Shown here one piece after another: positions 28,462-54,851 of a DNA stretch of 64,000 bases. This stretch comes from Pristiophorus japonicus (taxonomy: Eukaryota). Location: the NCBI RefSeq assembly GCF_044704955.1, contig NC_091999.1, positions 61,442,001-61,506,000 on the forward strand, written 5' to 3'. The number at the start of each line of letters is the position of its first letter. Position 1 is the first letter of the stretch. Below the pieces are notes generated by a model, which saw only the letters and a program-made list of their open reading frames with translations, was not told where the DNA came from and made no database searches. The translations under genes and the position numbers were made by a program.

Positions 28462-28495
28462 TTAGCTGTCACGTGATCCAGGTCGGAAGGTCTGC

Positions 28496-28513: not shown

Positions 28514-28515
28514 AA

Positions 28516-32085: not shown

Positions 32086-32143
32086 TTTATTGTTTTTTAT
32101 TTAAGAACTGAAATGCAATCGAGACATTCTCATTGACAAGAAT
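32086..32143 (-). pseudogene. IGHM: Distal end of the IgM secretory tail ((N)SCQ*) with two AATAAA signals
   Basis: Minus strand AT TCT TGT CAA TGA (32143-32130); AATAAA at 32101-32096 and 32091-32086. Confidence 0.82.
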
Positions 32144-33367
32144 GACTAAGAAAGCAATAAAGGAAGGAAAGATAGATTACAAAGGTAAACTTGCGCAAAA
32201 CATGAAAACGGATAGTAAAAGCTTTTACCGATATGTAAAACGGAAAAGAGTGACTAAAGTAAATGTTGGTCCCTTAGAAGATGAGAAGGGGGATTTAATA
32301 ATGGGAATTGTGGAAATTGCTGAGAGCTTAAACAATTATTTTGCTTCGGTCTTCACAGTGGAAGACACAAAAACCATGCCAGAAATTGCTGGTCAAAGGA
32401 ATGTGAGAAGGGAGGACCTTGAGACAATCACTATCACTAGGGGGGTAGTGCTGGACAGGCTAATGGGACTCAAGGTAGAAAAGTCCCCCGGTCCTGATGA
32501 AATGCATCGCAGGGATAAAGAGATGGCGGAAGTTATAGCAGATGCATTCGTTAAAATCCACCAAAACTCTCTGGACTCTGGGGAGGTACCAGCGGATTGG
32601 AAAGCAGCTAATGTAACACCTCTGTTTAAAAAAGAGGGCAGACAAAAGGCAGGTAACTATTGGCCGGTTAGTTTAACATCTGTAATGGGGAAAGTGCTTG
32701 AAACTATCATTAAGGAAGAAATAAGCGGGATATCTAGATAGGAATAGTGCAATCAAGCAGACGCAGCATGGATTCATGAAGGGGAAATCATGTTTAACTA
32801 ATTTACTGGAATTCTTTGAGGATATAACGAGCATGGTGGATACAGGTGTACCGATGGATGTGCTGTATTTAGATTTTCAAAAGGCATTCGATAAGGTGCC
32901 ACACAAAAGGTTACTGCAGAAGATAAAGGCACGTGGAGTCAGAGGAAAAGTATTAGCATGGATAGAGAATTGGCTGGCTAACAGAAAGCAGAGAGTCGCG
33001 ATAAATGGGTCCTTTTTGGGTTGGAAATCGGTGGTTAGTGGTGTGCCACAGGGATGGGTGCTGGGACTACAACTGTTTACAATATATATAGATGACCTGG
33101 AAGAGGGGACAGAGTATAGTGTAACAAAATTTGCAGATGACACAAAGATTAGTGGGAAAACGGGTTGTGCAGAGGACACAGAGAGGCTGCAAAGAAATTT
33201 AGATAGGTTAGAGAATGGGCTAAGATTTGGCAGATGGAATACAATGTCGGAAAGTGTGAGGTCATCCACCTTGAGGGAAAAAAAACAGCAAAAGGGAATA
33301 TTATTTGAATGGGGAGAAATTATAACATGCTGCGATGCAGAGGGACCTGGGGGTCCTTGTGCATGAA
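32144..33367 (+). mobile_element. CR1-type LINE ORF2, left part (5'-truncated, frameshifted)
   Basis: KSPGPDEMH, VPADWKAANVTPLFKK, HGFMKGKSCLTNLLEFFE, YLDFQKAFDKVPH, SGVPQG, KFADDTK. Confidence 0.95.
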
Positions 33368-33547
33368 ACTCTTTTAGGAGCAAACAAAAAATATTAAGCC
33401 GTGCCCCCCGATCTGGGGGAAACACCAACATTTACAAGGTTTATTTTTGGCACAAAAACATATTTTTTCTCCAAGTGCCCCCTATAAAAGGGGAGGGGGA
33501 CACTAAAAGCACCGGCAATTAAAACAAATTAACTTAAAAATATGAAA

Positions 33548-36500
33548 TCAAGTTAAAATTTGGTTGCCGGGCGTGATGATGCACTCCAGTCCCTCCGGTG
33601 CCCACCTCTTGCGGAAGGCCACGAGCGTACCGGTGGACACCGCATGCTCCATCTCCAGGGACACCCTTGACCGGATGTATGCGCGGAAGAGAGGCAGGCA
33701 GTCTGGCTGAACGACCCCCTCGACCCCCCGCTGCCTGGACCGGCTGAGGGCCCCCTTGGCCGTGCCCAGGAGCAGTCCTACGAGGAGGCCCTCGGACCTA
33801 CCCGCTCCCCTCCGCACAGGGTGCCCGAAGATCAGGAGTGTGGGACTGAAGTGCAGCCAGAATTTCAGGAGCAGCCCCTTTAAATAACAAAACAGGGGCT
33901 GCAATCTCGTGCACTCAATAAAAACATGGAACACGGACTCTTGCAGACCGCAGAAATTGCAGGCGGCCTGGGAGCCCGTGAACCGGCTTAAAAATTTATT
34001 GCACGGCACTGCTCCGTGCATCACCCTCCAGGCCAAGTCCCCGGCAAATAGTGGGAGGACCCCTGCGTAGAGTGCCCTCCATCGGGGACCCCCGCCTCCT
34101 CTGGACGGCAAGATGGTACACCATGGCGTGTCCAGACGGCAGGCAAGGATGGCAAAGTTGAGAGTGTGCAGGAGCAGCCCGTACAGGAAACCCCTCCGCG
34201 CGGAACTGAAAGGCACGGAGGGGATTTCCCCGAGGCGGCTCAAGTTGTGAGGCGCCGGCCCCCGAGGGAGGTTCCGGGGTTTGGCGCCGATGAGGAATTC
34301 CGTCCGGACGGGGGTCAGTTCGGACGGGATCTCCCCACGTGCTTGAGCCTCCTCGATGCACCTAACGGAGTCAGGGCCCAGAGCTGTTCTTAGCGACTCG
34401 ATGGCATCAGCCGCGCGGCGGACGTTGGCGGAATTTAGGCGCCGCGCCAGCGTGTCTGGCGCCATCCAACCCGCTCCTCCGCCATCGAGCAGGTCCCTGA
34501 CCCTAGTCACCTCACCAGCCACAGCCCTCTCGTCCGACCGCCACCTAAAACCTCGGTCGTGGAGGTACGGATTCCAGAGCAGCGGCTCCTGCAGGACGGC
34601 CGCCACTCCAGCCGGCGGAGAGCTGCGCTTGGTGGAGACTTTGTTCCAGACCCTGGTGAGTTCCTTGTAAAAGACAGGCAGCTCCCGGAGGGCGGTCCTA
34701 GCACCCCCCAAGTTCACAAACAGGAGCTGCGTGTCGTAGTTGAGGCCGTGCTGCTGGCGGAAGAAATACATCACCAGAGCATGCCACCTAGGAGGGGGCT
34801 CGACGTAAAGGTATCTCTGCAGTGTCCAAAGACGGAAAGTCGCGAGCTGGCCGCTGACGCACACCAACGACTGACCGCCCTCCTCAAGCGGGAGACTCAG
34901 GACCGCGGCAGAGACCCAGTGCTTCCTGTTGTTCCAGAAGAAGTCCACCAGCTTCTTCTGTATCTTGGCGACAAACGCAGGGGGAGGGGTCAAAGTGACC
35001 AGCCGGTACCACAACATTGCGGCCACCAGCTGGTTTATGACTAGTGCTCGACCCCTGTAGGTCAGCACTCGGAGCAGTCCTGTCCAGCGCCCTAGGCGAG
35101 CGGCGACCTTGGCCTCCAGCTCCTGCCAGTTCGCCGGCCAGGCTCCCTCGTCGGGGCTAAGGTAGACTCCCAGATAGAGGAGATGGGTCGTGCTCCAGGC
35201 AAATGGCCTGAGCTCCTCCGGCAGGGAGTCCACCCGCCACTGACCGACCAGGAGTCCGGAACATTTCTCCCAGTTGATCCTGGCGGAGGACGCGGCTGAG
35301 TAAATGTCCTGGCACTCACAGATCCTCCGCAGGTCAGCGGGATCCTCTACCGTGAGGAGCACGTCATCGGCGTAAGCCGAGAGGACGACCTCCACGCCCG
35401 GCCCTTGCAGAGCCAGTCCCGTCAACCTCGTCCGCAGGAGGCGCAGGAAAGGCTCCACGCAAATGGCGTATAACTGGCCGGACATGGGGCATCCCTGGCG
35501 CACCCCTCTCCCAAAGCGAAGGGGCGCCGTCCAGGACCCGTTAACATTAATCAGACACTTCGCGGCGGCGTATAAAAGTCGGATCCGGGCGGCGAAATGC
35601 GTCCCGAACCCAAAAGCGCGCAGAGTTCCGAGCAGATAATTGTGATCCACCCTGTCGAACGCCTTCTCTTGGTCGAGGGATAGGAAGGCGACCGACAGAC
35701 CAGCCTCCTGGGAACAATGGATGAGGTCCCGGACCAGATGGATGTTATCGTGGATTGTCAAGCCCGGGACCGTGTAGGACTGGTCGGGGTGGATCATGTG
35801 GTCCAGCACGGCACCAAGGCGAGCAGACATCGCCCTGGCGAAGATTTTGTAGTCCGTGCTGAGGAGGGAGACCGGGCGCCAGTTCTTAAGGAGGCGGAGA
35901 TCGCCCTTCTTAGGCAGCAGGACGATGACTGCCCTGAGCCAAGAGAGGGGCATCTCCCTGGTCGCCAGACTTTCCCACAGGACCCACGCGTAGTCGCTCC
36001 CCAGGACGTCCCAGAACGCCCTGTGGAACTCCACGGTCAGCCCGTCCAGCCCCGGGGCTTTTCCCCCCGAGAGCCGGGCGAGGGCACCGGTCAGCTCCGC
36101 CAGGCTTAGCGGAGCTTCCAGATTTTCGGCGCCCTCCGGGCTGACCTTCGGCAGGTCCTACCACAAAGCTCTACGCGCTTCCTCGCTGGACGGCTCCAGA
36201 GAGAACAGAGCCCCGTAATATTCACGGGCCCTGTTGTTGACGCCCTCCGGATCCGAGACGAGAGAGCCGTCGTCGGCCAGCAGCGTCAAGAGCTGCTTAC
36301 GGACACTCTGCCTTTTTTCCAGCGAGTAGAAGAAGGGGGAGCCGCGGTCCAGATCCCGCAGGAACCGGATCCGCGACCTCACGAACGCGCCTCGGGACCC
36401 GACGAGCTGCAGGTCCTTCAGCGCGGCCTTCTTCGCTTCGTACACCGTCCGCAGGGCCGGGTCCTGGACGACTTGACCGAGACGGGACTCCAGGTCGTGC

Positions 36501-37465
36501 ACCTCTTTTTCTAGGCGCCCGACCGTGGCCGCCCGCCTCTTGGTCGACCCTCTCGCGTATTCTTGACAGAAGACGCGGACGTGAGCCTTGCCCACGTCCC
36601 ACCATAGCCTCAAGGAGGGGAAGCCCCCCTGCTTCCTTCTCCAGTCGGTCCAGAATCGACGGAACGAGTCCTGGAACCGCACGTCCTCCAGCAGCCGCTT
36701 GTTAAAATGCCAGTACACGGACCCCGTCCTCGCGCGGAGCGAAGCGAGCTCCGCCCACACCAGGTGGTGGTCCGAACACGGCACCGGCCGCATGGAGGCC
36801 GCCGGGACGCAGGAAACGTACGCCTGAGACACGTAAAGGCGGTCGACTCTGGACCATCCTACTCCAGGCCTCACCCAAGTAAAGGCGCTGGAGTCGGGAC
36901 AGAGATTTCGCCAGACGTCCACCAAGTCGAAGGACCCGAACAGGTCCCTCAACTTCTCCATCGCCGTCATGCTCTGCGGGGCACCGGAGCCGTCCCTCGC
37001 CTCGAGGGTGCAGTTAAAATCCCCCCCGAGGACAATGCAGTCGCCGACGTCGACAGAGCCAAGAAGAGCGGACACCTCTTCGAAGAAGCGCGTTTGCTGC
37101 GGGCCGGGCTGAGGGGCGTACACGTTCACGAGATGGAGTGGCACGTCCCCCAGGCGAACCGTGACATGCAGCAAGCGGCCTGGCACGGGCTCCTCGACCC
37201 CCAAGATCTCCGGCTGAAAATGCGGGGCCAGCAAGATGGCCACCCCACTAGAAGTGGCAGTGAGGTGGCTCATGCGGACCTCTCCTTGCCATTCCAGGAG
37301 CCACGTCGCTTCGTCTCCCGGAACGGTGTGGGTTTCTTGCAGGAAGCACACCGCATATTTCCCCTCCCGCAGGAGCGAAAAATTGTTAAATCTATGGCGT
37401 GCCTCTCTGCCGCCGTTGATGTTGAGGCTGGCTATGGTTATCTTCATGACAAAAGCATAGTGCAA
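33548..37465 (-). CDS. Tx1 copy A ORF2 (APE endonuclease, RT, C-terminal zinc finger) with one premature TAG at 36158-36160
   Basis: SLNING, FLQETH, NVYAP, GGDFNC, SRVDR, SDHH; KNWRPVSLL, DQEKAFDRV, RQGCPMS, AYADD, CNFC...HVFIEC; ORFs 36158-37465 and 33548-36034 are in the same frame. Confidence 0.93.
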
Positions 37466-37477
37466 CCTCTACCTAAC

Positions 37478-39579
37478 CTATTGTGGCGGGGGGGGGGAGT
37501 AGAGTCGTTTGTTGACCTCCACTCCTTCAGCAGCCCAGCGAGGAACTTTTTGAGCCGGCGCAGCTCAAGGCCTTGCGCCTTTAATAAGGGCCCGCCCGCG
37601 GCCATGGTTTTAGCGGCGGCGCGGACGGAAGCGATGAGCAACACCGGCTCGGATCATCTTTCCCGGGCCAGATGGGTTCGGTTGCGGCGACCCCGGCACT
37701 GGACCAAAAAGTCCCGGAGTTCCTCTACGGGAATGACGGGGGTATCAGCGGCGGTCACGAGGAGATCCACCGCCTCACTGGCGATGGCCTCGAGATCTTC
37801 ACCCGCGTCCTCCACCGAGTCCCCGTCCCCCTCCGGGAGGTCGTCGTCAGCAGCCGGCCCGTCGACCGCACGAGGTATGGCAAAAGGCCCGGCCGCTCCA
37901 TCTGGCCCTGGCTCTGCCCCAATCCCAACCCCAGGATCGTCGGCAGAGGAGTCCCCACTGGGCTCTTGTAAAATTGGTACTGGGTCGGGAAGCGACAGCG
38001 GAAGGGGTTCCTCCTCCGCCCCAGGAACCGGGGAACACGGAGAGACCTGGTCAAAGTAATGTTCCAGGTCCACCAAGTACCCCAGCTCCAAAGTAGGGGG
38101 CGAGGGTTGTTGTTCTTCCCCCTCCCCGCCGCCACCCCCCGGCCCAGTGTGTACAGAATCGTTAAAATTAATCCATTTTCAGTTTCTTCCGGGCCGAGCG
38201 ACTCTAGGAGGCAGATAATTAATAGCTGGGCGGGCTCAGGTTCGGCCTGTTCGGCCCCGCCTGCCTCAGTCCCGGGGACGCTCGGCCCGGCGGCTACGCA
38301 TTCCACCGCTGGCCCCACGCCCCCCACGACAGGCAGATCATTCACGCCATCCCCGGGAGGCAGAGGCCGGGCAGCCTCGACTGCCCCTCCCTCCCCGGGG
38401 ACAGATTCCTCTCGCCTACGGCGCAATTTGGGGGCGCTGGTGGGGGACGCGGGACACGCGGCGGGCACCGACTCCTCCGCGGAGGGATGTTGTTCCCCCT
38501 CCGCCTCATTGGAGCGGCGCCTCCTTTTGTTCCTGGGAGGGCGTGGAGGCAGGGAGACCTCTATGTCTGCCGAGGCCTCCCGCTCCACCCCCCCTTTTTC
38601 TTTTCTTGCCCGCGCCCGAGCGCCTCTGTGATACTGGTCAAGGGCTCAGGCACGGGCTCAGGGCACCCCGCGCTCGCCGGGACGGGGTTGGCCCGAGCGC
38701 GGTAAACAGATTGTCTGGCGCACTGAGGGGACCCGCCTCTAGATGTTTCATCTTCTTCCGCGCCTTCTTTCCGCTCGGACGCTCTCCCTCCCCCCCGCCG
38801 GAGGCCCTGAAAACAAAGGCCTCCGACGATTCCCGCGCACCTACGGCTCCCGGCACGTGGACGCTACTCGGGGGAGGGGTGGCGGCGGCGCCAGCCTTGG
38901 CCACCCTCGGTGGTTTGGCGGCCTTGGAGGCGGGGCAGTTCTTGCGAACGTGTCCCACCTCCCTACAGGCATGGCACCGCACGCCGTCCGACGTCCAGAA
39001 GACGCGGTAGGCAGTCCCCTCGTGCACCACATTAAAACTTCCCTCCGTCGTCTCCTCCCGCGCCAGCCGGACAAAGAGCTGGCGGCGGAAGGAGAACACG
39101 TGGCGCAGGCTGCTCTCCCTGAGGCCGAGCGGTATGGGGTTGATCCCTGACCTTACCTCCCCCAGTTGGTGTAGGTGAGGGAGGAGGAGCTCAGCGGAAA
39201 CAAAGGGCGGGACGTTTGACACGATGACCCTCTGCGCGGTGGCCTCGAGAGGGTGCACCGGCAGGAACGTCCCGCCTACCGTGAGCCCCTTTTCAAGGGC
39301 CAGGGACACCGGTCGCTCCGACCCCAGGAAGAACACAGCCTTCCCAGACACCTTGGAGGCCGCAACAATGGCCGAGTGGCCGACTACCCCAGCCATCGCC
39401 CGCACGCACTCCTCAATGCTCATTGTGGGGTGAGTGTAGCTCTTGACCCCGTGTTTCTTAGTTATAAGTCTGAATGGTGGCAGGGCAGCAGGAGGCACAG
39501 GAGGTGCTGTGGAAGCGGTTGCCACCTGCGCATATGTCCTCGCTGGCCCTGCCACCGGCGTGGATGGGGTCGCCATCAC
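37478..39579 (-). pseudogene. Tx1 copy A ORF1 (RRM-like, CCHC knuckle, P/A/E-rich tail), frameshifted
   Basis: VIVSNVPPF, VFSFRRQLF, CHACREVGHVRKNC; C-terminal ELRRLKKFL. Confidence 0.88.
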
Positions 39580-40527
39580 AGGGTCCCTTTAAGGCCTACA
39601 CCCACCCCAAAGTCACAGGCCTTAATGGTCTTAAATGGCCTCGTTTAAGTATATGAACAGAGGGAGCTCTGAAAGAGGCACACCTCTCCCCTAGTTGGCA
39701 ATTGGGGAGGGGCCTTGCTCCCTCTGCTCAGTTGTCTTAATTGTTCTTGTTTTTGTTCACTTGTGAGGAAAGGGCTCTCAGAGAGAGAGGGGAGAGACAG
39801 AGAAAGAGTGAAAGAGTCAGGCGGGGTGGGAAAGAGGGAAGCTGCGAGGGCTGATCTCCCCTCACAGCGATGGGTGGGCGCACTCCCCAGATGTCAAACA
39901 AAACAGTCCTTGGGGTGGTCTTCGGGTGGGTGGAGAAGGTGTCTTCACCTGGGGCAGCTGGAGCCACATAGATACACACTCCCAACGATGTTATTTAGGG
40001 TGATTGAGTTTCTTCAGCCAGGTAGCTCCAGCTATCCCAGGCTAGGCAATGGGGAGGGGTGCTTCAGTGGTGTGTGGGCCTAGCTGTAGGCAAGACCCCC
40101 ACACACACTTCAACACACACACACACACACACACACCCCGCGATGTTCCGGCCCTCGATTGGTCTTCTTTCCTCCCCCCCACCGATACAACAAAGTCTTT
40201 TTGGGGAATGCACCAAAATACACCCAACTCTGGTTGAAGAAGTCTTTCCCTCCTTCCACACTGGTAAGTTGTTGTTCTTTTTTTTCCCCTCTCTCGAACT
40301 CTTCGTAGGGATAATAATGGTGTTGCAGTCTTCTGCTCTCCTCCTCTCACTCTGGATAAATGGTAATGAAGCTCTTTCCTTCCTCCTCCTATTCCTGGTC
40401 TGTTCTCAGGGCTCAGTCAAGGCCTCCCAGACAGGAGCAAAGCAGGGAGTTCCTTCTCTCTCAGCAGCACAGCTCCAAGTGAAGAGGCCACGCCTCCAAA
40501 GCTCCACCATTGGTCCTTGTGCATCAA

Positions 40528-43500
40528 ACTCTTTTAGGAGTAAACAAAAGACTTAAACCGTGCACCCGATCTGTGGGAAACACCAACATTTACAAGTCCC
40601 TTTTTTTAATTTTAGTTTTTTTTTTTGGGGCACAGAATCAATTTTTTTTCCAAGTGCCCCCTATAAAAGGGAAGGGGGACACTAAAAGCACCGGCAATTA
40701 AAACAAATTAACTTAAAAATATAAAATCAAGTTAAAATTTGGTTGCCGGGCGTGATGATGCACTCCAGTCCCTCCGGTGCCCACCTCTCGCGGAAGGCCG
40801 CGAGCGTACCGGTGGACACCGCGTGCTCCATCTCCAAGGAGACCCTGGACCGTATGTATGCGCAGAAGAGAGGCAGGCAGTCTGGCTGAACGAACCCCTC
40901 GAACGCCTGCTGCCTGGACCGGCTGATGGCCCCCTTGGCCGTGCCCAGGAGCAGTCCTACGAGAAGGCCCTCGGACCTACCCGCTCCCCTCCGCACAGGG
41001 TGCCAGAAGATCAGGAGTGTGGGACTGAAGTGCAGCCAGAATTTCAGGAGCAGCCCCTTTAAATAGCAAAACAGGGGCTGCAACCTCGTGCACTCAATAA
41101 AAACATGGAACACGGACTGTTCCAGACCACAGAAATTACAGGCGGCCTGGGAGCCCGTGAACCGGCTTAAAAATTTATTGCACGGCACTGCTCCGTGCAC
41201 CACCCTCCAGGCCAAGTCCCTGACAAATAGTGGGAGGGCCCCTGCATAGAGTGCACTCCATCGAGGACCCCCGCCTCCTCCGGACGGCAAGATGGTACGC
41301 CATGGCGTGTAAGGACGGCAGGCGAGGATGACAAAGTTGAGAGTGTGCAGGAGCAGCCCGTACAGGAAACCCCTCCGCGCGGAACTGAAAGGCACGGAGG
41401 GGATTTCCCCGAGGCGGCTCAAGTTGTGAGGCGCCTGCTCCCGAGGGAGGTTCCGGGGTTTGGCGCCAATGAGGAATTCCGTCCAGACGGGGGTCAGTTC
41501 AGACGTGATCTCCCCGCATGCTTGAGCCTCCTCGATGCACCTAACGGAGTCGGGGCCCAGAGCTGTTTTAGCGACTCGATGGCATCGGCCGCGTGGCGGG
41601 CGTTGGCAGAATTTAAGCGCAGCGCCAGCGTGTCTGGCGCCATCCAGCCCGCTCCTCCGCAATCGAGCAGGTCCCTGACCCTGGTCACCTCACCAGCCAC
41701 AGCCCTCTCTTCCGACCGCCACATAAAACCTCGGCCGTGGAGGTACGGATTCCCGAGCAGCGGTTCCTGCAGGACGGCCGACACTCCAGCCGGCGGAGAG
41801 CTGCGCTTGGTGGAGACTTTGTTCCAGACCCTGATGAGTTCCTTGTAAAAGACAGGCAGCTCCCGGCGGACTGTCCTGACGCCCCCCACACTCACAAACA
41901 GGAGCTGCGTGTCGTAGTTGAGGCTATGCTGCTCGCGGAAGAAATACCTCGCCAGAGCACACCACCTAGGAGGGGGCTCGACCTAAAGGCATCTCTGCAG
42001 GGTCTGAAGATGGAATGTCGCGAGCTGGGCGCTGACGCACAGCAATGACTGACCGCCCTCCTCAAGCGGGAGACTCAAGACCGCGGCAGAGACCCAGTGC
42101 TTCCTGTTGTTCCAGAAGAAGTCCACCAGCTTCTTCTGTATCTTGGCGACAAACGCAGGGGCAGGGGTCAAAGTGACCAGCAGGTACCACAGCATTGCGG
42201 CCACCAGCTGGTGTATGATTAGCGCTCGACCCCTGTAGGACAGCACTCGGAGCAGTCCTGTCCAGCGCCCTAGGCGAGCGGCGACCTTGGCCTCCAGCTC
42301 CTGCCAGTTCGCCGGCCAGGCTCCCTCGTCGGGGCTAAGGTAGACTCCCAGATAGAGGAGATGGGTCGTGCTCCAGGCAAAAGGCCTGAGCTCCTCCGGC
42401 AGGGAGTCCACCCGCCACTGACCCACCAGGAGTTTGGAACATTTCTCCCAGTTGATTCTGGCGGAGGACGCGGCCGAGTAAATCTCCTGGCACTCACGCA
42501 TCCTCCGCAGGTCAGCGGGATCCTCTACCGCGAGGAGCACGTCGTCGGCGTAAGCCGAGAGGACGACTTCCACGCCAGGCCCTTGCAGAGCCAGTCCCGT
42601 CAACCTCGTCCGCAAGAGGCGCAGGAAAGGCTCCAGGCAGACGGCGTATAACTGGCCAGACATGGGGCATCCCTGGCGCACCCCTCTCCTAAAGCGAAGG
42701 GGCGCCGTCAAGGACCCATTAACCTTAATCAGACACTCCACAGCGGCGTACAAAAGTCGGATCCGGGCGACAAAATGCGTCCCGAAGCCGGAAGCGCGCA
42801 GAGTTCCGAGCAGATAGTCGTGATCCACCCTGTCGAACGCCTTCTCTTGGTCGAGGGATAGGAAGGCTACCGACAGACCAGCCTCCTGGAAATGATGGAT
42901 GAGGTCCCGGACCAGATGGATGTTATCGTGGATTGTCCGGCCCGGGACCGTGTAGGACTGGTCGGGGTGGATCATGTTGTCCAGCACGGCACCAAGGCGA
43001 GCAGACATCGCCCTGGCAAAGATTTTGTAGTCCGTGCTGAGGAGGGAGACCGGGCGCCAGTTTTTAAGGAGGCGGAGATCGCCCTTCTTAGGCAGCAGGA
43101 CGATGACTGCTCTGCGCCAAGAGAGGGGCATCTCCCCGTCGCCAGACTTTCCCCCAGGACCCGCGCGTAGTCGCCCCCCAGGACGTCCCAGAACACCCTG
43201 TGGAACTCCACGGTCAGCCCGTCCAGCCCCGGGGATATTCCCCTCGAGAGCCGGTTGAGGGCACCGGTCAGCTCCGCCAGGCTTAGCGGAGCTTGCAGAT
43301 TTTCTGCGCCCTCCGGGCTGACCTTCGGCAGGTCCTCCCACAAAACTCTATGTACTTCCTCGCTGGACGGATCCGGAGAGAACAGAGCCCCGTAATATTC
43401 ACGGGCCCTGTTGTTGACGCCCTCCGGATCCGAGAGAGAGAGCCGTCGTCGGCCAGCAGCGTCAAGCGCTGCTTACGGACACTCTGCCTTTTTTCCAGTG

Positions 43501-46500
43501 AGTAGAAGAAAGGCGGAGCCACGGTCCAGCTCCCGCAGGAATTGGATCCGCGACCTCACGAACGTGCCTCGGGACCCGACGAGCTGCAGATCCTTCAGCG
43601 CGGCCGTCTTCGCTTCGTACACCATCCGCAGGGCCGGGTCCTGGACGACTTGACCGAGACGGGACTCCAGTTCGAGCACCTCTTTTTCTAGGCACCCGAC
43701 CCTGGCCGCCCGCCTCTTGGTCGACCCCCTCGCGTACTCTTGACAGAAGACGCGGATGTGAGCCTTGCCCACGTCCCACCATAGCCTCAAGGAGGGGAAG
43801 CCACCCTGCTTCCTTCTCCTGTCGGCCCAGAAACGATGGAACGAGTCCTGGAACCCTACGTCCTCCAGCAGCTGGTTGATAAAATACCACTATGCGGACC
43901 CCGTTCTCGTGCGGAGCGAAGCGAGCTCCGCCCACACCAGGTGGTGGTCCGAACACGGCACCGGCCGCTTGGAGGCCGCCAGGACGCAGGAAACGTATGC
44001 CCGAGACACGTAAACGCGGTCGACTGTGGACCATCCTACTCCAGGCCTCACCCAAGTAAAGGCGCTGGAGTCGGGATGGAGATTTCGCCAGACGTCCACC
44101 AAGTCGAAGGACCCGACCAGGTCCCTCAACTTCTCCATCACCGTCATGCTCTGCGGGGCACTGGAGCGGTCCCTCGCCTCGAGGGTGCAGTTAAAATCCC
44201 CCCCCGAGGATAATGCAGTCGCCGACGTCGACGGAGCCAAGAAGAGCGAACACTTCTTCGAAGAAGCGCACTTGCTGCGGGCCGGGCTGACGGGCGTACA
44301 CGTTCACGAGATGGAGTGGCACGTCCCCCAGGCGAACCGTTACGTGCAGCAAGCGGCCTGGAACGGGATCCACGACCCCCAAGATCTCCGGCTGAAAATG
44401 CGGGGCCAACAAGATGGCCACCCCACTAGAAGTGGTAGTGAGGTGCCTCATGCGGACCTCTCCTTGCCATTCCAGGAGCCACGTGGCTTCATCTCCCGGA
44501 ACGGTGTAGGTTTCTTGCAGGAAGCACACCGCATATTTCCCCTCCCGCAGGAGCGAAAAATTGTCAAATCTACGGCGTGCCTCTCTGCCGCCGTTGATGT
44601 TGAGGCTGGCTATGATTATCTTCATGACTAGAGCATAGTGCAACCTCTACCTAACCTATTGTGGGGGCGGGGAGTGGAGTCGTTTGTTGATCTCCACTCC
44701 TTCAGCAGCCCAGCGAGGAACTTTTTGAGCCGGCGCAGCTCAAGGCCTTGCGCCTTTGATAAGGGCCCGCCCGCGGCCATGGTTTTAGCTGCGGTGCGGA
44801 CGGAAGCAACGAGCAACACTGGCTCAGACCATCTTTCCCGGGCCAGACGGGCTTGATCGCGGCGACCCCGGCACTGGACCAAAAAGTCCCGGAGTTCCTT
44901 TACAGGAATGAGGAGGGTCTCAGCGGCGGCCGCGAGCAGATCCACCGCCTCACTGGCGATGGTCTCTAGATCTTCTCCTGCGTCCCCCACCGAGTCCCCG
45001 TCAACCTCCGGGAGGTTGCCGCTATCAGCCGGCCCGTCGACCGCACGAGATACGGCAAACGGCCCGGCCGCTCCATTTGGCCCTGGCTCTGCTCCGATCC
45101 CACCCCCAGGATCGTCAGCAGAGGTGTCCCCACTGGGCTCTTCTAAAATTGGTGCTGGGTCGGGAAGCTTCAGCGGAAGGGGTTCCTCCTCCGCCCCAGG
45201 ATCCGGGGAACATGGAGAGACCTGGTTTAGGAAATTCTCCAGGTCCATCAAGTCCCTCAGCTCCAAAGTAGGGGGCGAGCTTTGTTGTTCTCTACCCTCC
45301 CCACCGCCAACCCCGGCCCAGCGTGTGGATGTATATTACAGTTGTCTGCAGTGTCAGTTTCTGCCGAGTCGAGCAAATCCCGGGGGAAGTTGGGTATTGG
45401 CTGGGCGGGCTCAGGTTTGGCCTTTTCGGCCCCGCCCGCCTCAGTCCCCGAGACGCTCGACCCAGCGGCCACACATTCTTCCACGGTCCCCACGCCCCTC
45501 ACGACAGGCAGATCTTTCACGCCATCCCCGGGAGGCAGCGGCTGGGCAGCCTCGAATGTCTCACCCTCCCCGGGGACAGACTCCTCTCGCCTACAGCGCA
45601 GCTTGGGGGCGCTGGTGGGGGACGCGGGACACGCGGCGGGCACCGCCTCCTCCGCGGAGGGATGTTGTTCCCCCTCCGCCTCATTGGAGCGGCGCCTCCT
45701 TTTGTTCCTGGGAGTGAGCGGAGGCAAGGAGACCCCCATGTCTGCCAAGGCCTCCTGCTCCACTCCCCCCTTTTCCTTATCATGCCCGCGCCCGAACCCC
45801 TCTGCGGTATTGATCGAGGGCTCGGGCACGGGCTCAGGGCACCCCGCGCTCGCCGGTGACGGGGTTGGGCTGAGCGCGATAAACAGATTATCTGGCGCAC
45901 CGAAGGGACCCGGCTCGAGATGTTTCGTCTTCTTCCGCGCCTTCCTTCCGGCCGGACGCTCTCCCTCCCCCCCGCCGGATGCCGTGAAAACAAAGGCCCC
46001 CGACGATGCCCGCGCACCGACGGCTTCCGGCACGCGAACGCAACTAGGGGGAGGGGTGGTGGCGGCGCCAGCCTTGGCCGCCTTCGGTGGTTTGGCGGCT
46101 TTGGAGGCGGGGCAGTTCTTGCGAACGTGCCCCACCTCCCTACAGGCATGGCAACGCACGCCGTCCGACGTCCAGAAGACGCGGTAGGCAGTCCCCTCGT
46201 GCACCACATTAAAATTGCCCTCTGTTGTCTCCTCCCGCGGCAGCCGGACAAAGAGCTGGCGGCGGAAGGAGAACACATGGCGCAGGCTGTTCTCCCTGAG
46301 GCCGAGCGGTATGGGGTTGATCCCCGACCTTACCTCCCCCAGTTGGTGTAGGTGAGGGAGGAGGAGCTCAGCGGGAACAAAGGGCGGGACGTTCGATAGA
46401 ATGACCCTCTTTGCGGTGGCCTCGAGAGGGTCCACCGGCAGGAACGTCCTGCCCACCGTGAGCCCCTTTTCGACGGCCAGGGACACCGCCCGCTCCGACG

Positions 46501-47663
46501 CCAGGAAGAACACGGCCTTCCCAGACATCTTGGAGGCTGCGACAATGGTCGAGGTGCCGACTACCCCAGCCATCGCACGCACGCACTGCTCGATGCTCAT
46601 TGTGGGGTGAGTGTAGCTCTTGACCCCGTGTTTTTTAGTTATCAGTCTGAATGGTGGCAGGCAGCAGGAGACGCAGGAGGTGCCGTGGAAGCGCTTGCCA
46701 CCTGCGCATATGGCCTAGCTGGCCCTGCCACCGGCGTGGATGCGGTCGCCATCACGGGGTACCTTTAACGGCTACACCCACCCCAAAGTCACAGGCCTTA
46801 ATGGTCTTAAATGGCCTCGTTTAAATATTTGAACAGAGGGAGCTCTGAAAGAGGCACACCTCTCCCCTAGTTGGCAATTGGGGAGGGGCCTTGCTCCCTC
46901 TGCTCAGTTGTCTTAATTGTTTGTTTTTTTTTAATTAGGAGGAAAGGGCTCTCAGAGAGAGAGGGGAGAGACAGAGAGAGAGATAGAGTGAGGGGGTGTG
47001 GGAAAGAGGGAATCTGCGAGCGCAGGTCTCCCCTCACAGCGGTGGGTGGGTGCACTCCCAGATGTCAAACAAAACAGTCTTTGGGGTGGTCTTCGGGTGG
47101 GTGGAGAAGATGTCTTCACCTGGGGCAGCTGGAGCCACACAGGTACACACTCCCAACCATGTTAATTAGGGTGATTGAGTTTCTTCAGCCTGGTAGCTCC
47201 ATCTATCCCAGGCTAGGCAATGGGGGAGGGGTGCTTCAGTGGAGTGTGGGCCTAGCTGTAGGCAAGACCCCCACACACACTTCCACACACACACACACAC
47301 CCTCCGCGATGTTCCGGCCCTCGATAGGTCTTCTTTCCTCCCCCCACCGATACAACAAAGTCTATTGGGGAATGCACCAAAACACACCCACATCTGGTTG
47401 AAGAAGTCTTTCCCTCCTTCCACACAGTTGTTTTTTCCCCCTTTCTCCAAATCTTTGTAGAATTAATCAAGTTGTTGCAGTCTTCAGCTCTCCTCCTATC
47501 CCTCTGGAAGAATGGTAATATAGCCCCTTCCTTCCTCCTCCTATTCCTGGGCTGGTCTCAGGGCTCACTCAAGGCCTCCCAGACAGGAGCAAAGCAGGGA
47601 GTTCCTTCTCTCTCAGCAGCACAGCTCCAAGTGAATAGGCCACGCCTCCAAAGCGCCACCATT
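40528..47663 (-). mobile_element. Tx1 copy B (full-length; ORF1 ~44655-46753 and ORF2 40727-44643, both frameshifted)
   Basis: Same motifs as copy A, split over several frames; followed by gttccttgtgcataa at 47664-47678. Confidence 0.95.
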
Positions 47664-47678
47664 GTTCCTTGTGCATAA

Positions 47679-50600
47679 ACTCCTTTAGGAGTAAACAAAA
47701 AACATTAAACCGTGCCCCCGATCTGGGGGAAACGCCAACATTTACAACGTCCTTTTTTTTTTGGGCACAGAATTGAATTTTTATCCAAGTGCCCCCTACA
47801 AAAGGGGAGGGGGACACGAAAAGCACCGGCAATTAAACACCTAAAGTCAAATTAAAATTTGGTTGCCGGGCGTGATGATGCACTCCAGTCCCTCCGGTGC
47901 CCACCTCTCGTGGAAGGCCGCGAGCGTACCGGTGGACACCGCGTGCTCCATCTCCAAGGACAGCTTGGACTGGATGTAAGAGCGGAAGAGAGGCAGGCAG
48001 TCTGGCTGAACGACCCCCACGACCGCCCGCTGCCTGGACCGGCTGATGGCCCCCTTGGCCGTGCCCAGGAGCCGTCCTACGAGGAGGCCCTCGGACCTAC
48101 CCGCTCCCCTCCGCACAGGGTGCCCGAAGATCAGGAGTGTGGGACTGAAGTGCAGCCAGAATTTCAGGAGCAGCCCCTTTAAATAACAAAATAGGGGCTG
48201 CAACCTCGTGCACTCAATAAAAACATGGAACACGGACTCTTCTAGACCGCAGAAATTACAGGCGGCCTGGGAGCCCGTGAACCGGCTTAATAATTTATTG
48301 CACGGGACTGCTCCGTGCACCACCCTCCAGGCCAAGTCCCCGATAAATACTGGGAGGACGCCTGCGTAGAGTGCCCTCCATCGGTGACCCCCGCCTCTTC
48401 CGGACGGCAAGATGGTACGCCATGGCGTGTCCGGACGGCAGGCGAGGTTGGCAAAGTTGAGAGTGTGCAGGAGCAGCCCGTACAGGAAACCCCTCCGCGC
48501 GGAACTGAAAGGCACGGATGGGATTTCCCCGAGGCGGCTCAAGTTGTGAGGCGCCGGCCCCCGAGGGAGGTTCCGGGGTTTGGCGCCAATGAGGAATTCT
48601 GTCCGGACGGGGGTCAGTTCGGACGGGATCTCCCCACGTGCTTGAGCCTCCTCGACGCACCAAACGGAGTCGGGGACCAGAGCTGTTTTTAGCGACTCGA
48701 TGGCATCGGCCGCGTGGCGGACGTTGGCAGAATTTAGGCGCCGCGCCAGCGTGTCTGGCGCCATCCAGCCCGCTCCTCCGCCATCGAGCAGGTCCCTGAC
48801 TCTGGTCACCTCACCAGCCACAGCCCTCTCATCCGACCGCCACAAAAAACCTCAGTCGTGGAGGTACGGATTCCCGAGCAGCGGTTCCTGCAGGACGGCC
48901 GCCACTCCAGCCGGCGGAGAGCTGCGCTTGGTGGAGACTTTGTTCCAGACCCTGATGAGTTCCTTGTAAAAGACAGGCAGCTCCCGGAGGGCGGTCCTGA
49001 CGCCCCCACACTCACAAACAGGAGCTGCATGTTGTTGTTGAGGCCGTCCTGCTGGCGAAATAAATACATTGCCAGAGCACGCCACCTAGGAGGAGGCTCG
49101 ACGTAAAGATATCTCTGCAGGGTCTGAAATGGAAAGTCGCGAGCTGGGCGCTGACGCACAACAACGACTGACCACCCTCCCCAAGCGGGAGACTCAAGAC
49201 CGCGGCAGAGATCCAGTGCTTCCTGTTGTTGCAGAAGTCCACCAGCTTCTTCTGTATCTTGGCGACAAACGCAGGGGGAGGGCTCAAAGTGACCAGCCGC
49301 TACCACAGCATAGCGGCCACCAGCTGGTTTATGACTAGAGCTCAACCCCTGTAGGACAGCACTTGGAGCAGTCCTGTCCAGCGGCCTAGGCGAGCGGCGA
49401 CCTTGGCCTCCAGCTCCTGCCAGTTCGCCACCCACACTTCCTCGTCGGGGCTAAGGTAGACTCCCAGATAGAGGAGATGGGTCGTGCTCCAGGCAAAAAG
49501 CCTGAGCTCCTCCGGCAGGGAGTCCACCCGCCACTGACCCACCAGGAGTCCGGAACATTTCTCCCAATTGATTCTGGCGGAGGACGCGGTCGAGTAAATC
49601 TCCTGGCACTCACACATCCTCCGCAGGTCAGCGGGATCCTCTACCGCGAGGAGCACGTCATCGGCGTAAGCCGAGAGGACGACTTCCACGCCCGGCCCTT
49701 GCAGAGCCAGTCCCGTCAACCTCGTCCACAAGAGGCGCAGGAAAGGCTCCACCGCATATTTCCCCTCCCGCAGGAGCGAAAAATTGTCAAATCTACGGCG
49801 TGCCTGTCTGCCGCCGTTGATGTTGAGGCTGGCTATGGTTATCTTCATGACTAGAGCATAGTGCAACCTCTACCTAACCTATTGTGGGGGGGGAGTGGAG
49901 TCGTTTGTTGACCTCCACTCCTTCAGCAGCCCAGCGAGGAACTTTTTGAGCCGGCGCAGCTCAAGGTATTGCGCCTTTGATAAGGGCCCGCCCGCGGCCA
50001 TGGTTTTAGCTGCGGTGCGGACGGAAGCGACGAGCAGCCCCGGCTCGGACCATCTTTCCCGGGCCAGACGGGCTTGGTCGCGGCGACCCCGGCACTGGAC
50101 CAAAAAGTCCCGGAGTTCCTTTACAGGAATGAGGAGGGTCTCAGCGGCGGCCGCGAGCAGATCCACCGCCTCACTGGCGATGGTCTCTAGATCTTCTCCT
50201 GCGTCCCCCACCGAGTCTCCGTCCCCCTCCGGGAGGTCGCCGCCAGCAGCCGGCCCATCGACCGCACGAGGTACGGCAAACCGCCCGGCCGCTCCATCTG
50301 GCCCTGGCTCTGCCCCGATCCCACCCCCACGATCGTCGGCAGAGGAGTCCCCACTGAGCATTTTTAAAAGTGGTGCTGGGTCGGGAAGCGACAGCGGAAG
50401 GGGTTCCTCCTCCGCCCCAGGAGCCGGGGAACACGGAGAGACCTGGTTTAGGAAATTCTCCAGGTCCACCAAGTATCCCAGCTCCAAAGTATGGGGCGAG
50501 GGTTGTTGTTCTTCCCCCTCCCCGCCGCCTCCCCCCGGCCCAGCGTGTGGATGCATATTACAGTTGTCTGCAGTGTCAGCTTCTGCCGAGTCGAGCAAAT

Positions 50601-52859
50601 CCCGGGGCAAGTTGGGTATTGGCTGGGCGGCCTCAGGTTCGGCCTTTTCGGCCTCGCCCGCCTCAGTCCCCGGGACGCTCGACCCGGCGGCTACGGATTC
50701 TTCCGCTGGCCCCACGCCCCCCACGACAGACAGATCTTTCACATCATCCCCGGGAGGCAGCGGCTGGGCAGCCTCGACTGCCTCACCCTCCCCGGGGACA
50801 GATTCCTCACGCCTACAGCGCAGTTCGGGGGCGCTGGTGGGGGACGCGGGACATGCGACGGGCACCGACTCCTCCGCGGAGGGATGTTGTTCTCCCTCCA
50901 CCTCATTGGAGCGGCGCCTCCTTTTTTTCCTGGGGGTGCGCGGAGGCAGGGAGACCCCCATGTCTGCCGAGGCCTCCCGCTCCACTCCCCCCTTTTTCTT
51001 GTCTTGCCCACGCCCGAACCCCTCGATGATACTAGTCAAGGGCTCGGGCACGGGTTCAGGGCACCCCGCGCTCGCCGGTGACTGGGTTTGGCCTTGCGTG
51101 GTAAACAAGTTGTTTGGCGCACCGAGGGGATGTTTCGCCTTCTTCCGCGCCTTCTTTCCGGCCGTGAAAACAAAGGCCCCCGATGATGCCCGCGCACCTA
51201 TGGCTCCCGGCAAGCGGATGCTACTAGGGGGAGGGGTGGCGGCGGCGCCAGCCTTGGACGCCCTCGGTGGTTTGGCAGCCTTGTTGGCGGGGCAGTTCTT
51301 GCGAACATGCCCCACCTCCCTGCAGGCATGGCACCGCACGCCATCCGACGTCCAGAAGACGCCGTAGGCAGTCCCCTCGTGCACCACATTAAAACAACCC
51401 TCCGTCGTCTCCTCCCGCGCCAGCCGGACAAAGAGCTGGCGGCGGAAGGAGAACACATGGCGCAGGCTGGTCTCCCTGAGGCCGAGCGGTATGGGGTTGA
51501 CCCCGACCTTACCTCCCCCAGTTGGTGTAGGTGAGGGAGGAGGAGCTCAGCGGGAACAAAGGGCGGGACGCTTGAAATGACGACCCTCTGCGTGGTGACC
51601 TCGAGAAGGTCCACTGGCAGGAAAGTCCCGCCCACCGTGAGCCCCTTTTCAAGGGCCAGGGACACCGGTCGCTCCGACCCCAGGAAGAACACGGCCTTCC
51701 CAGACATCTTGGAGGCTGCGACAATGGCCGAGGGGCCGACTACCCCAGCCATCGCCCGCGCACACTCCTCAATGCTCATTGTGGGGTGAGTGTAGCCCTT
51801 GACCCCGTGTTTTTTAGTTATCAGTCTGAATGGTGGCAGGGCAACAGGAGGCGCAGGAGGCGCCGTGGATGTGGACGCCGCCTGCGCATAATTCCTAGCT
51901 GGCCCTGCCACCAGCGTGGATGGGGTCGCCATCACGGGGTCCCTTTAAGCGCGACACCCACCCCAAAGTCACAGGCCTTAATGGTCTTAACTGGCCTCGT
52001 TTAAGTTCTTAACAGCGGGAGCTCTGAAAGAGGCACACCTCTCCCCTAATTTGCAATTGGGGAGGGGCCTTGCTCCCTCTGCTCAGTTGTCTTAATTGTT
52101 CTTGTCTTTTTTTCCCAATTGGGAGGAAAGGCTCTCAGAGAGAGAGGGGGGAGACAGAGAGAGAGACAGAGTGATGGGGTGTGGGAAAGAGGGAGGCTGC
52201 AAGGGCAGGTCTCCCTTCACAGTAATGGGTGGGTGCACTCCCCAGATGGCAAACAAAACAGTCTTTGGGGTGATCTTCGGCTGGGGGGAGAAGATGTCTT
52301 CACCTGGGGCAGCTGGAGCCACACAGGTACACACTCCCAACGATGTTAATTAGGGTGATTCAGTTTCTTCAGCCTGGTAGCTCCAGCTATCCCAGGCTAG
52401 GCAATTGGGTGAGGGGTGCTTCAGTGGTGTGTGGGCCTAGCTGTAGGCAAGACCCCCACACACACTTCCACACACACCCCCCCCCCCCCCCGCGGTGTTC
52501 TGGCCCTCGATTGGTCTTCTTTCCTCCCCCCACCGATACAACAAAGTATTTTTGGTGAATGCACCAAAACACACCCACCTTTGGCTGAAGAAGTCTTTCC
52601 CTCCTTCCACACTGGTAAGTTGTTGTTCTTTTTTCCACCTCTTTCCAACTCTTTGTTGAAATAATGAAGGTGTTGCAGTCTTCTGCTCTCCTCCTCTCAC
52701 TCTAGATGAATGGTAATGAAGCCCCTTCCTATCTCCTGTTCCTGGGCTGGTCTCAGGGCTCACTCCAGGCCTTCCAGACAGAAGCTAAAGCAGGGAGTTC
52801 CTTCTCTCAAAGCAGCCAGGCTCCAAGTGCATAGGCCACGCCTCCAAAGCTCCATCATT
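47679..52859 (-). mobile_element. Tx1 copy C (~5.2 kb, with a ~1.9-kb deletion in ORF2)
   Basis: ORF1 49879-51935; ORF2 jumps from EGKYAV to EPFLRLL at ~49750; followed by GGTCCTTGTGCATGAA at 52860-52875. Confidence 0.95.
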
Positions 52860-52875: not shown

Positions 52876-53067
52876 ACTCTTTTTCGGAGTAAACAAAAAA
52901 CATTAAACCGTGCCCCCCCCCCCGATCTGGGGGAAACACCAAACATTTACAGGCCCTTTTATTTTTTGTGGTATTTTTTGGGGGGTTTTTTTTGGCACAA
53001 AAACATATTTTTTCTCCAAGTGCCCCCTATAAAAGGGGAGGGGGACACTAAAAGCACCGGCAATTAA
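52876..53067 (-). mobile_element. Tx1 copy D: 3'-UTR-only fragment (~190 bp)
   Basis: Homologous to 33368-33522, 40528-40701 and 47679-47836 (actctttt...gtgccccctataaaaggggagggggacac...caattaa). Confidence 0.9.
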
Positions 53068-53761
53068 TGTTAGTTTGCAGGTGCAGCAGGTAATCAGGAA
53101 GGCGAATGGAATGTTGACATTCATTGCCAGAGAGATGGAGTACAAAAGCAGGGAGGTCCTTCTGCAACTGTATAGGGTATTGGTGAGGCCGCACCTGGAG
53201 TACTGTGTGCAGTTTTGGTCACCTTACTTAAGGAAGGATATACTAGCTTTGGAGGGGGTACAGAGACGATTCACGAGGCTGATTCAGGAGATGATAGGGT
53301 TACCTTATGATGATAGATTGAGTAGACTGGGTCTTTACTCGTTGGAGTTCAGAAGGATGAGGGTTGATCCATAGAAACATTTAAAACAATGAAAGGCATA
53401 GACAAGATAGAGCAGAGAGGTTGTTTCCACTGCTCGGGGAGACTATAACTAGAGGGCACAGCCTCAAAATACAGGGGAGCCAATTTAAAACTCAGTTGAG
53501 AAGGAATTTCTTCTCCCACAGAGTTGTGAATCGGTGGAATTATCTGCAAAGGGGAGGAATTGAGGATAGCTCATTGAATGTATTCAATTCACAGAAAGAT
53601 AGATTTTTAACCAATAAGGGAATTAAGAGTTATGGGGAGCGGGCGGGTAAGTGGAGCTGAGTCCACGACCAGATCAGCCATGATCTTGTTGAATGGCGGA
53701 GCAGGCTCCAGATGCAAGATGGCCTACTCCTGTTCCTAATTCTCATGTTCTTATGTTCTTA
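53068..53761 (+). mobile_element. CR1-type LINE, right part (ORF2 C-terminus, 3' UTR, (TTCTTATG)n tail)
   Basis: QVQQVIRKANGML...LVRPHLEYCVQFWSP...LEGVQRRFTR directly continues the RT broken at 33367; tail atgttcttatgttctta. Confidence 0.95.
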
Positions 53762-53959
53762 TGAAGGTGTCCATCAGAACAAGGAAAATGCTTTACCACT
53801 GGATTTATTGACGGTTCTGTTGGTGATTATCAAGGAGATCGCTTCATGTCCCACCACACAGGTGTGAGAGGCGCCGCTGGCCCACTCCTCGGATGCAATG
53901 GATAGTAGGCTGTACATGAAGAAGGAGGACAGACACGGCTGGTTCCCGCGGATCTTTCG
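53762..53959 (-). pseudogene. IGHM: IgM Cmu4 plus proximal secretory tail, internally deleted, copy 2
   Basis: ctacag acceptor, then [11 protein letters not shown] fused to [29 protein letters not shown]...[10 protein letters not shown]; after a frameshift, LVLMDTF. Confidence 0.87.
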
Positions 53960-54851
53960 CTGTAGAACAGTTACAACAAAGGCCAATGAACTGGATAGTT
54001 CCAGAGACAATGGGGGAATTTCAACCCAATACAGCGGGCGGGTTTTGGGCGTGGAGGTTGTTAAATTGGTAAAAATTAGAATCCCTACCTCAACTCGCCT
54101 ACTTCCAGTTGTAATATTATATTTGAGTAATATATTTAAATGATACTTGAATCCTCTATTTTAACCACCATTTGGTGTTTAACAGTCGTTGGTCCGGTTT
54201 GACACACTGTGTAAATCTCAGCAGTTACAGCAAGGTGGGGATTGCTGCTCCCAGGTGATAATTGCCCTTGCACCTACCTCCTGGATCCAGGATCCGCGAC
54301 CTCCTCACTCGGCTTCCAATCCTCCCGTTTTCACTGGTGGCCTGTGAGACCAACGCCCACAACTCGCCTTCCTCATTTAAATTCAGCCAATTTCCGGTGG
54401 TTAGATGTGAGAGAAATGGACACCGCGTTGAATTTTGACGCTTTTCATTTTCCCCTCTGTTGCCTCTCTGGTTTTCCATCCCTTATCCGAGGGAAAGTAA
54501 TCTTTCTCTCTGAAATCTTGAAGCATTGGACTGGAAAATGACAAAGAATTTAATGCACAGAACGAGGAGATTTGGCCAACTGGTCTATGCCGGTGGTTGT
54601 GATCCACACAAGCCTCCTCCGAGCCCACTTCATCTAAACCTAATAATATACCGTTCTATTTCTTTCTCGCTCATGGACTTATCCAGTTTCCCCTAAAATA
54701 CATAATGTCAGGTCCCAGAGTGCTGAGTTGGTGGAATTACCAACCTGAATGATCAGAGTAGCCATTAAACACTTTATATAATCAATTGGCCCTTGCACAC
54801 GCATCGAAATTGTCGCAGTGTCTTACTTATTGCAACAATCTCCCCGCTCAC

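What the first reader, a model, noticed from the sequence alone, without database searches (positions are those of the whole stretch)
33368..52859. Tandem Tx1 copies look like independent insertions from different subfamilies, not a local duplication
Copies A, B and C differ at many positions and carry different lesions. A has an ORF1 segment (~38140-38225, LLIICLLESLGPEETENGLIL) that does not match the equivalent in B and C (PIPNLPRDLLDSAEADTADNC). A has only one stop in ORF2, whereas B and C have several frameshifts. If each new copy primes at the CR1-proximal site, the age order is D, C, B, then A youngest, which fits A being the most intact.
Basis: partly seen in the sequence, partly recalled or inferred. 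Interest (0 to 1): 0.7.

Follow-up and report, generated by a model that had tools for sequence, protein, structure and literature searches.

The report
Stacked Tx1 insertions, later reshuffled
Three long copies and one stub of a jumping gene sit nose-to-tail at one fixed spot inside another repeat; they share almost no private mutations, so they likely arrived as separate insertions, and the whole stack was then copied along with a broken antibody-gene region and partly rewritten by recombination.

Summary
Tx1 units A, B, C and stub D lie head-to-tail, antisense in a CR1, each behind the same 15-16 bp target motif. Against 53 unrelated loci, A/B/C share only 1-2 private alleles per pair, while true local duplicates share 23-64. 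They share no disabling lesion. ORF1 and 5'UTR trees reject an A+B+C clade. Separate insertion is therefore supported. Three corrections follow. (2) 'Different subfamilies' holds for ORF1 only; the 5'UTR lineage is shared and the copies are mosaics. (3) 'A youngest' is not supported. There is no age gradient in 5 of 5 paralogs, A's ORF1 has three frameshifts and a stop, and A's tidy ORF2 is likely an imported patch. Target geometry, stub position (12 of 21 right ends against 1 of 17 left ends) and the R1 precedent favour the reverse order. The mechanism is known from R1 arrays. The scan had already noted this CR1-targeting family on other DNA of this genome.

The parts
32138..33351 (+). Left part of the host CR1 LINE fragment (RT region), up to the Tx1 target
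   Evidence: RVT_1 match in 32725-33363; continuous with the right part in 12 empty paralogs
33352..33367 (+). Target motif GGTCCTTGTGCATGAA, left copy; the inferred first-strand nick lies at its right end
   Evidence: sequence; same motif at type-1 CR1 sites across the genome
33368..40511 (-). Tx1 copy A, full length. ORF1 from 39576 (three frameshifts, one stop); ORF2 37447-33548 (one stop at 36158-36160)
   Evidence: 49% identity over 99% of the RT part to Xenopus Tx1 ORF2
34551..37351 (-). Interior of A's ORF2, likely replaced by sequence from a dispersed, younger copy (limits approximate)
   Evidence: over 35451-37351 the nearest sequences after paralog L002 are unrelated-locus copies at 2.9-3.4% (3.1% nearest over 34551-35451), not the other A orthologs; 0-2 private alleles shared per segment with orthologs other than L002
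38140..38225 (-). ORF1 variable segment of the second ORF1 lineage, with A-specific substitutions and a 1-bp deletion at 38173
40512..40527 (+). A/B junction: target motif with one substitution; the first 5 bases are likely supplied by the element's 5' tip
   Evidence: the GGCCC/GGTCC variant follows the element's 5' type, and L050 keeps GGTCC without a duplication
40528..47663 (-). Tx1 copy B, full length, frameshifts in both ORFs, two ORF2 stops
43905..44507 (-). Tract of B that shares 7 private alleles with the undeleted C of paralog L008: exchange between B and C after insertion (limits approximate)
   Evidence: present in the window, L012 and L018, absent from B of L002, L008 and L009
47664..47678 (+). 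B/C junction: degenerate target motif (one substitution, one base lost)
47679..52859 (-). Tx1 copy C, both ends present, 1.9-kb internal deletion near 49751 removing most of the endonuclease and the start of RT
   Evidence: the same deletion in 5 other paralogs, absent in L008 and L015
52860..52875 (+). C/D junction: intact target motif
52876..53066 (-). Stub D: about 190 bp of Tx1 3' end, 5'-truncated, with no target duplication behind it and 7 bp of CR1 lost
   Evidence: compared with empty paralogs
53067..53763 (+). Right part of the host CR1, to its 3' tail; the CR1 interrupts the IgH secretory tailpiece
53764..53960 (-). Broken last IgH constant exon and secretory tailpiece (about 160 bp missing relative to paralogs, frameshifted tail)

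Best explanation
The array was likely built by separate target-primed insertions of a CR1-targeting Tx1 family at one regenerated site, and it was then copied inside a duplicated IgH pseudogene region and patched by recombination. Steps: (1) shown: a CR1 interrupts the IgH tailpiece, and paralogs exist without the CR1 (8), with an empty CR1 (12) and with Tx1 (50). (2) Inferred: the Tx1 endonuclease nicks the + strand after the 16-bp motif, the 3' end of the RNA is copied first, and the 5' end joins through a 5-base match, leaving the motif on both sides. (3) Shown: A, B and C descend from different source copies. (4) Inferred, about 60-65%: later copies mostly entered the motif at the 5' side of the previous copy, where both halves of the native site survive, which gives the order A, B, C, D, with D ending growth because it left no duplication. 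(5) Shown: the A-B-C-D block was duplicated, contracted to A/C chimeras, expanded and converted in paralogs.
For: Shared private alleles A-B 2, A-C 1, B-C 2 against 53 loci; 4, 1, 3 and none three-way against 34 loci, with a between-locus null of median 0, 95th percentile 3, n=884. True local duplicates share 23-64. 138-217 of the 390-511 pairwise differences are at sites where both alleles occur in 3 or more unrelated loci. In ORF2, alleles shared with other loci have pN/pS 0.29 (p=1e-11) and private alleles 0.76 (p=0.13 against neutral). An A+B+C clade is rejected in ORF1 (p-AU 3e-5) and the 5'UTR (0.017). No shared lesion. Order: short units at 12 of 21 right array ends against 1 of 17 left ends (Fisher p=0.0015, hand tally); in array C4b a target variant sits at both internal junctions and the right end but not the left; A's 3' part groups with the leftmost units of four other filled lineages (98/86); 48 of 50 filled paralogs carry the same leftmost tip type, seen in 3 of 74 unrelated tips, or 11 of 74 loosely defined; Drosophila R1 arrays grow at the 5'-side duplication (PMC2718515, passages).
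Against: The ORF2 3' tree does not reject an A+B+C clade (p-AU 0.28). All three 5'UTRs belong to one lineage. B carries a C-like tract. B-C dN/dS 0.67 is not significantly below 1 (p=0.064), and local duplicates also give 0.42-0.52. L066 shows a SINE inserted on the 3' side. Left against right units elsewhere show no age difference (15 against 14 of 32 pairs). No paralog with the orthologous right flank preserves an intermediate such as A only or C+D.
Confidence: 0.75

Rival explanations
1. Local tandem duplication: one insertion (plus stub D) was amplified in place by unequal exchange, and the copies then diverged neutrally.
For: Such duplications are common in this family: C9a, C4a, C18a and L009 hold neighbours with 50-69 shared private alleles. 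A, B and C share a 5'UTR lineage. The ORF2 3' tree allows a clade.
Against: 1-2 shared private alleles per pair and no shared lesion. 84-135 non-CpG differences per pair at old polymorphic sites. ORF1 and 5'UTR clade tests rejected. Purifying signal in the shared-allele class.
Confidence: 0.07
2. Separate insertions, but always at the left site (3' side of the previous copy), giving the reader's order D, C, B, A.
For: Private alleles are lowest in A in the window, and C has more stem alleles. L066 shows 3'-side insertion can occur.
Against: No significant gradient in 5 of 5 paralogs tested (p 0.12-0.77). A's low count coincides with a likely imported ORF2 tract. A's 3' end is shared with all filled lineages tested. 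Stub asymmetry and C4b polarity. One caveat: 3'-side insertions could be hidden if they resolve as conversion of the resident 3' end (inference).
Confidence: 0.3
3. Part of the array was imported ready-made from another locus, by ectopic recombination between arrays or by reverse transcription of a read-through dimer, rather than inserted unit by unit here.
For: Other paralog lineages join this left flank to right flanks from different CR1 loci, and carry junctions of the second CR1 target type inside a first-type site. A's interior looks imported.
Against: The window's left and right CR1 halves are both orthologous to the empty paralogs. No non-paralogous copy closer than 93-96% appeared in the top 40 for A, B or C, though these lists are capped.
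Confidence: 0.12
4. Assembly artefact.
For: No long-read check was possible; the region is highly repetitive.
Against: The copies differ by 7-8%, and the same A-B-C-D structure recurs in 7 other paralogs with distinct flanks, 5 of them with the same deletion in C.
Confidence: 0.02

Closest known systems
Tx1L of Xenopus laevis (UniRef YTX2) and other target-specific Tx1 families: Tx1-Mar, Tx1-8_Crp, Tx1-4_AMi, Tx1-9_AMi (PMC4494074; passages and section 15 read, supplements not seen)
   Same: Two ORFs, AP-type endonuclease plus RT, 49% identity over 99% of the RT part to YTX2; fixed insertion site inside another transposable element; SINE-like passengers use the same site.
   Different: The known targets named in the passages read are DNA transposons, LTR retrotransposons, U2 genes and microsatellites. 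Here the target is the RT coding region of two CR1 LINE families, entered antisense.
Tandem R1 arrays in Drosophila rDNA (PMC2718515, passages read)
   Same: Head-to-tail full-length non-LTR elements separated by the target duplication; formed by repeated insertion; 5' junctions with microhomology. The authors place new copies at the 5'-side duplication.
   Different: Different clade, and a dispersed, non-essential target. The order here is inferred from indirect signs only.
Double insertion followed by unequal exchange (McGurk and Barbash 2018, PMC5932611, passages read)
   Same: The tandem starts by repeated insertion, keeps the target duplication in the junction, then expands or contracts by unequal exchange.
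   Different: Here the later history can be read across about 70 segmental paralogs, including empty and pre-CR1 states.

Membership tests
Tx1 clade non-LTR retrotransposon | ORF2 with AP-type endonuclease, RT and C-terminal zinc-binding region | tested here: met
   Exo_endo_phos and RVT_1 above cut-off; zf-RVT weak and below cut-off
Tx1 clade non-LTR retrotransposon | RT closest to Tx1-clade proteins | tested here: met
   best named full-length hit is Xenopus YTX2, 49% over 99%; by similarity, no clade-level tree built
Target-specific Tx1 family | Most copies at one position of one target sequence | tested here: met
   nearly all unit 3' tips listed across the 57 unrelated loci scanned follow the motif of CR1 type 1 or type 2; loci were chosen by similarity to full-length copies, so they are not a random sample
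Target-specific Tx1 family | The element's endonuclease nicks that site | not testable with these tools
   needs a nicking assay
Tandem array by repeated insertion (R1 type) | Target duplication kept in each internal junction | tested here: met
   3 of 3 internal junctions
Tandem array by repeated insertion (R1 type) | Units descend from different source copies | tested here: met
   ORF2 3' part alone unresolved
Tandem array by repeated insertion (R1 type) | Growth at the 5'-side duplication | tested here: inconclusive
   stub asymmetry, C4b polarity and shared A tip in favour; stem counts and L066 against
Local tandem duplication | Shared private mutations and lesions among units | tested here: not met
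   1-2 shared per pair against 23-64 in controls; no shared lesion; one 0.6-kb B/C tract is an exception
Distinct subfamilies along the whole element | Units fall in different lineages in every segment | tested here: not met
   different in ORF1, same lineage in the 5'UTR, unresolved in the ORF2 3' part

The most novel reading that the evidence does not exclude
A CR1-targeting Tx1 family makes self-renewing landing pads that became recombination hinges for a chromosome full of shark-type IgH clusters. The arrays are where cluster copies contract, expand and swap flanks with unrelated loci, so a parasite of a parasite helped drive IgH cluster birth and death. A single change in the target kept the sister group of 12 paralogs empty.
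Probability: 0.25. Interest if true: 0.62.

Novelty: new variant of a known kind. Interest (0 to 1): 0.4.

Why it matters
The added value is a natural series of about 70 paralogs of one locus (no CR1, empty CR1, filled, contracted, expanded, rearranged). It shows insertion and recombination acting on the same array, and it warns that 'most intact' does not mean 'youngest' for such copies. It also makes the target rules of a LINE-targeting Tx1 endonuclease and the direction of array growth directly testable. Tx1 targeting of CR1 coding sequence did not turn up in the four Tx1 paper searches run; Repbase and most subscription papers were not searchable.

Tried and rejected
Nearest-neighbour test as proposed: rejected as confounded, because the top hits are segmental duplicates. 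First private-allele densities counted deleted bases and inflated C; redone with substitutions only. Dating left against right units in unrelated arrays gave no signal (455 against 414 alleles, p=0.17). D is too short to date (0-1 private alleles in 155 columns). The idea that neighbours share 5' ends through a special 5'-completion mechanism was set aside: in the arrays inspected by eye, the middle unit also shares its 3' tip with the right neighbour, which ordinary unequal exchange explains. Read support: public runs are held only as short contigs, none bridged the A/B junction by 31 bases on both sides, and the best runs may be the assembly's own sample, so this is no evidence either way. 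The Tx1L endonuclease paper (PMC85248) was not held; its findings are cited only through PMC1950540 passages. A search for papers on IgH clusters and retrotransposons listed nothing on point.
Full report
ANATOMY. The window lies on contig C23 of a 5.9-Gb genome, likely a cartilaginous fish (inference from the IgH tailpiece and the multi-cluster layout; the tailpiece label is recalled). Self-comparison and translation show three long Tx1 units and a stub on the minus strand: A 33368-40511, B 40528-47663, C 47679-52859 and D 52876-53066. ORF2 carries endonuclease and RT domains and is 49% identical over 99% of its RT part to Xenopus Tx1 ORF2. Each unit is preceded on the + strand by GGTCCTTGTGCATGAA or a decayed form. 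The array interrupts a CR1 RT region, and D ends without a duplication and with 7 bases of CR1 lost.

OBSERVATION. Pairwise differences are 7.2-8.0%. A's ORF2 has one stop. B's has five 1-bp indels and two stops. C's has a 1.9-kb deletion, three small deletions and three stops. No lesion is shared. A's ORF1, however, has three 1-bp deletions and a stop, so A is not intact. The ORF1 segment near 38140-38225 is a real lineage variant, found in 8 of 15 unrelated copies aligned, but the peptide quoted is partly out of frame and partly A-specific decay.

THE CONFOUND. The best genomic matches to A, B and C (97-99%) are not other insertions. They are copies of this same locus, with the same spacing and with left flanks 95-99% identical. 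I fetched 50 further left-flank paralogs (one ends at its contig edge before the target, so 50 filled loci including the window) and 20 right-flank paralogs. Of the 20, 12 have the CR1 with an empty target and 8 lack the CR1. All lists are capped at 40, so these are lower bounds. The duplicated unit is an IgH constant region: nearby exons match Ig heavy constant domains, and the CR1 interrupts an already frameshifted secretory tail that is intact in pre-CR1 paralogs.

SEPARATE ORIGIN. I built a pool of unrelated loci chosen by similarity to the ORF1 segments of A, B and C (34 loci, 73 units; L052 and L057 dropped as duplicates of L042), then added loci of the same 5'UTR lineage (53 loci, 114 units; L162 and L163 look like duplicates and were both kept; L051 is on C23 but at another site). 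Alleles absent from the pool and shared by two window copies number 4, 1 and 3 in the first pool, none three-way, against a between-locus null of median 0, 95th percentile 3 and maximum 25 over 884 pairs. They fall to 2, 1 and 2 in the larger pool. True local duplicates in other arrays share 23-64. Of 511, 413 and 390 differences, 217, 175 and 138 are at sites where both alleles occur in three or more unrelated loci. ORF2 dN/dS is 0.59, 0.52 and 0.67 (p=0.0005, 0.002, 0.064). Split by class, alleles shared with other loci give 0.29 and private alleles 0.76, as expected if the sources diverged while active and the copies decayed afterwards. Local duplicates also give 0.42-0.52, so dN/dS alone does not decide. 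Trees reject one clade for the ORF1 C-half (p-AU 3e-5) and the 5'UTR (0.017) but not for the ORF2 3' part (0.28); trees left out four or five units known as local duplicates and any unit covering under 85% of the segment. The three 5'UTRs belong to one lineage that is widespread in the genome. So the sources were different mosaics of one recombining family rather than three separate subfamilies.

LATER HISTORY. Among 21 paralogs that end in stub D, 8 have three units, 11 have one and 2 have partial extra units. Painting with private alleles shows that single units such as L001, L011 and L017 have an A-type 3' end and a C-type 5' end, so they are deletion products and not early stages. In the window, B shares 7 private alleles with the undeleted C of L008 over about 43905-44507. 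A's ORF2 interior is closer to unrelated copies (2.9-3.4%) than to A orthologs other than L002, and shares 0-2 private alleles per segment with them; A's tidy ORF2 is likely an imported patch. In 8 other filled paralogs placed in the right-flank tree, the right CR1 half comes from other loci, and several carry junctions of a second CR1 target type. The array has thus served as a rearrangement point.

MECHANISM AND ORDER. Across unrelated loci the family sits at the same position in two CR1 families. The first five bases of the 5'-side motif follow the element's own 5' type and persist where no duplication was made, so they are likely element-encoded and act as microhomology; the duplication proper is about 11 bases (inference). 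After an insertion, only the 5'-side motif keeps the native sequence on both sides of the inferred nick. Drosophila R1 arrays are reported to grow there (PMC2718515, passages). In favour here: short units end 12 of 21 arrays on the right but 1 of 17 on the left (hand tally, p=0.0015); in C4b a target variant occurs at both internal junctions and the right end but not the left; A's 3' part groups with the leftmost units of four other lineages, and 48 of 50 filled paralogs share its tip type, so A's position is as old as the filled group. Against: private alleles in the window rise from A to C, stem alleles are 22/23/40 (p=0.027), and one SINE entered on the 3' side. The gradient is not significant in any of 5 paralogs, and unrelated arrays show no left-right age difference. 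I put about 60-65% on A first and D last; all units are close in age.

COMPARISON AND NOVELTY. Repeated insertion followed by unequal exchange is described in PMC5932611 (passages), and Tx1 families that target other transposons in PMC4494074 (passages and section 15; supplements not seen, and they may list further targets). Four searches (listings only) showed no paper on Tx1 targeting CR1. The scan's own notes already describe this family on another piece of this genome. The finding is a real, well-supported case of a known process in a Tx1 family with an apparently unreported target class, with a wrong or unproven age order and an unusually rich paralog record.

Noticed in passing
window 53764-53960 and 57118-57687, 1575-2213 (minus); L141-L160: The array sits in a CR1 that interrupts the secretory tailpiece of an IgH constant gene. 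The region is seen at 70 or more places, mostly on C23; the tail is intact in the 3 pre-CR1 paralogs printed and frameshifted in the CR1-bearing ones printed.
   Followed up: partly
L141-L150, L152, L153: All 12 empty paralogs carry a G-to-C change in the target motif (4 have a second change) and form one clade, so this is one event; it may have blocked insertion.
   Followed up: partly
L023/L114, L033, L066, L062, L168: Short SINE-like units use the same target. Three are called tRNA-Asp by ARAGORN (3 of 5 loci scanned); L062 and L168 hold other short units.
   Followed up: partly
L043, L045, L047, L049, L051, L053, L055, L056: A second, about 70% identical CR1 family is hit at the homologous position with a shorter motif (GTCCACAGA), by copies with their own 3' UTR types; target type tracks the 3' end of the element.
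   Followed up: partly
L021, L024, L031, L032, L034: Arrays anchored in a type-1 CR1 contain type-2 junctions, and in L024 and L032 end in non-orthologous right flanks: recombination between arrays at different loci.
   Followed up: partly
window 1-7173 and 55491-62451: Tandem segmental duplication (92-96% identity); the preceding unit, just upstream of the window (L022, L040), has its own rearranged Tx1 array.
   Followed up: partly
window 20692-29111: Degenerate LTR retroelement: LTR-like pair 20692-21286 and 28516-29111 at 81% identity, with two RNase H-type Pfam matches on the minus strand. Observed only.
   Followed up: no
window 13381-14349 (minus): Intronless 322-codon frame matching 7tm_1 (rhodopsin-family receptor) between IgH-like units.
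   Followed up: no
G000 C19:5.16-5.88 Mb (L042, L052, L057): One Tx1-in-CR1 insertion repeated at about 38.8-kb spacing, in a tandem duplication; its two target copies differ at two bases.
   Followed up: no
window 14388-15138, 17340-18548, 18698-20676, 2076-2525, 57550-57847: Minisatellites of 43, 35 and 38 bp and a 2-kb purine-rich (GAGAG) tract.
   Followed up: no
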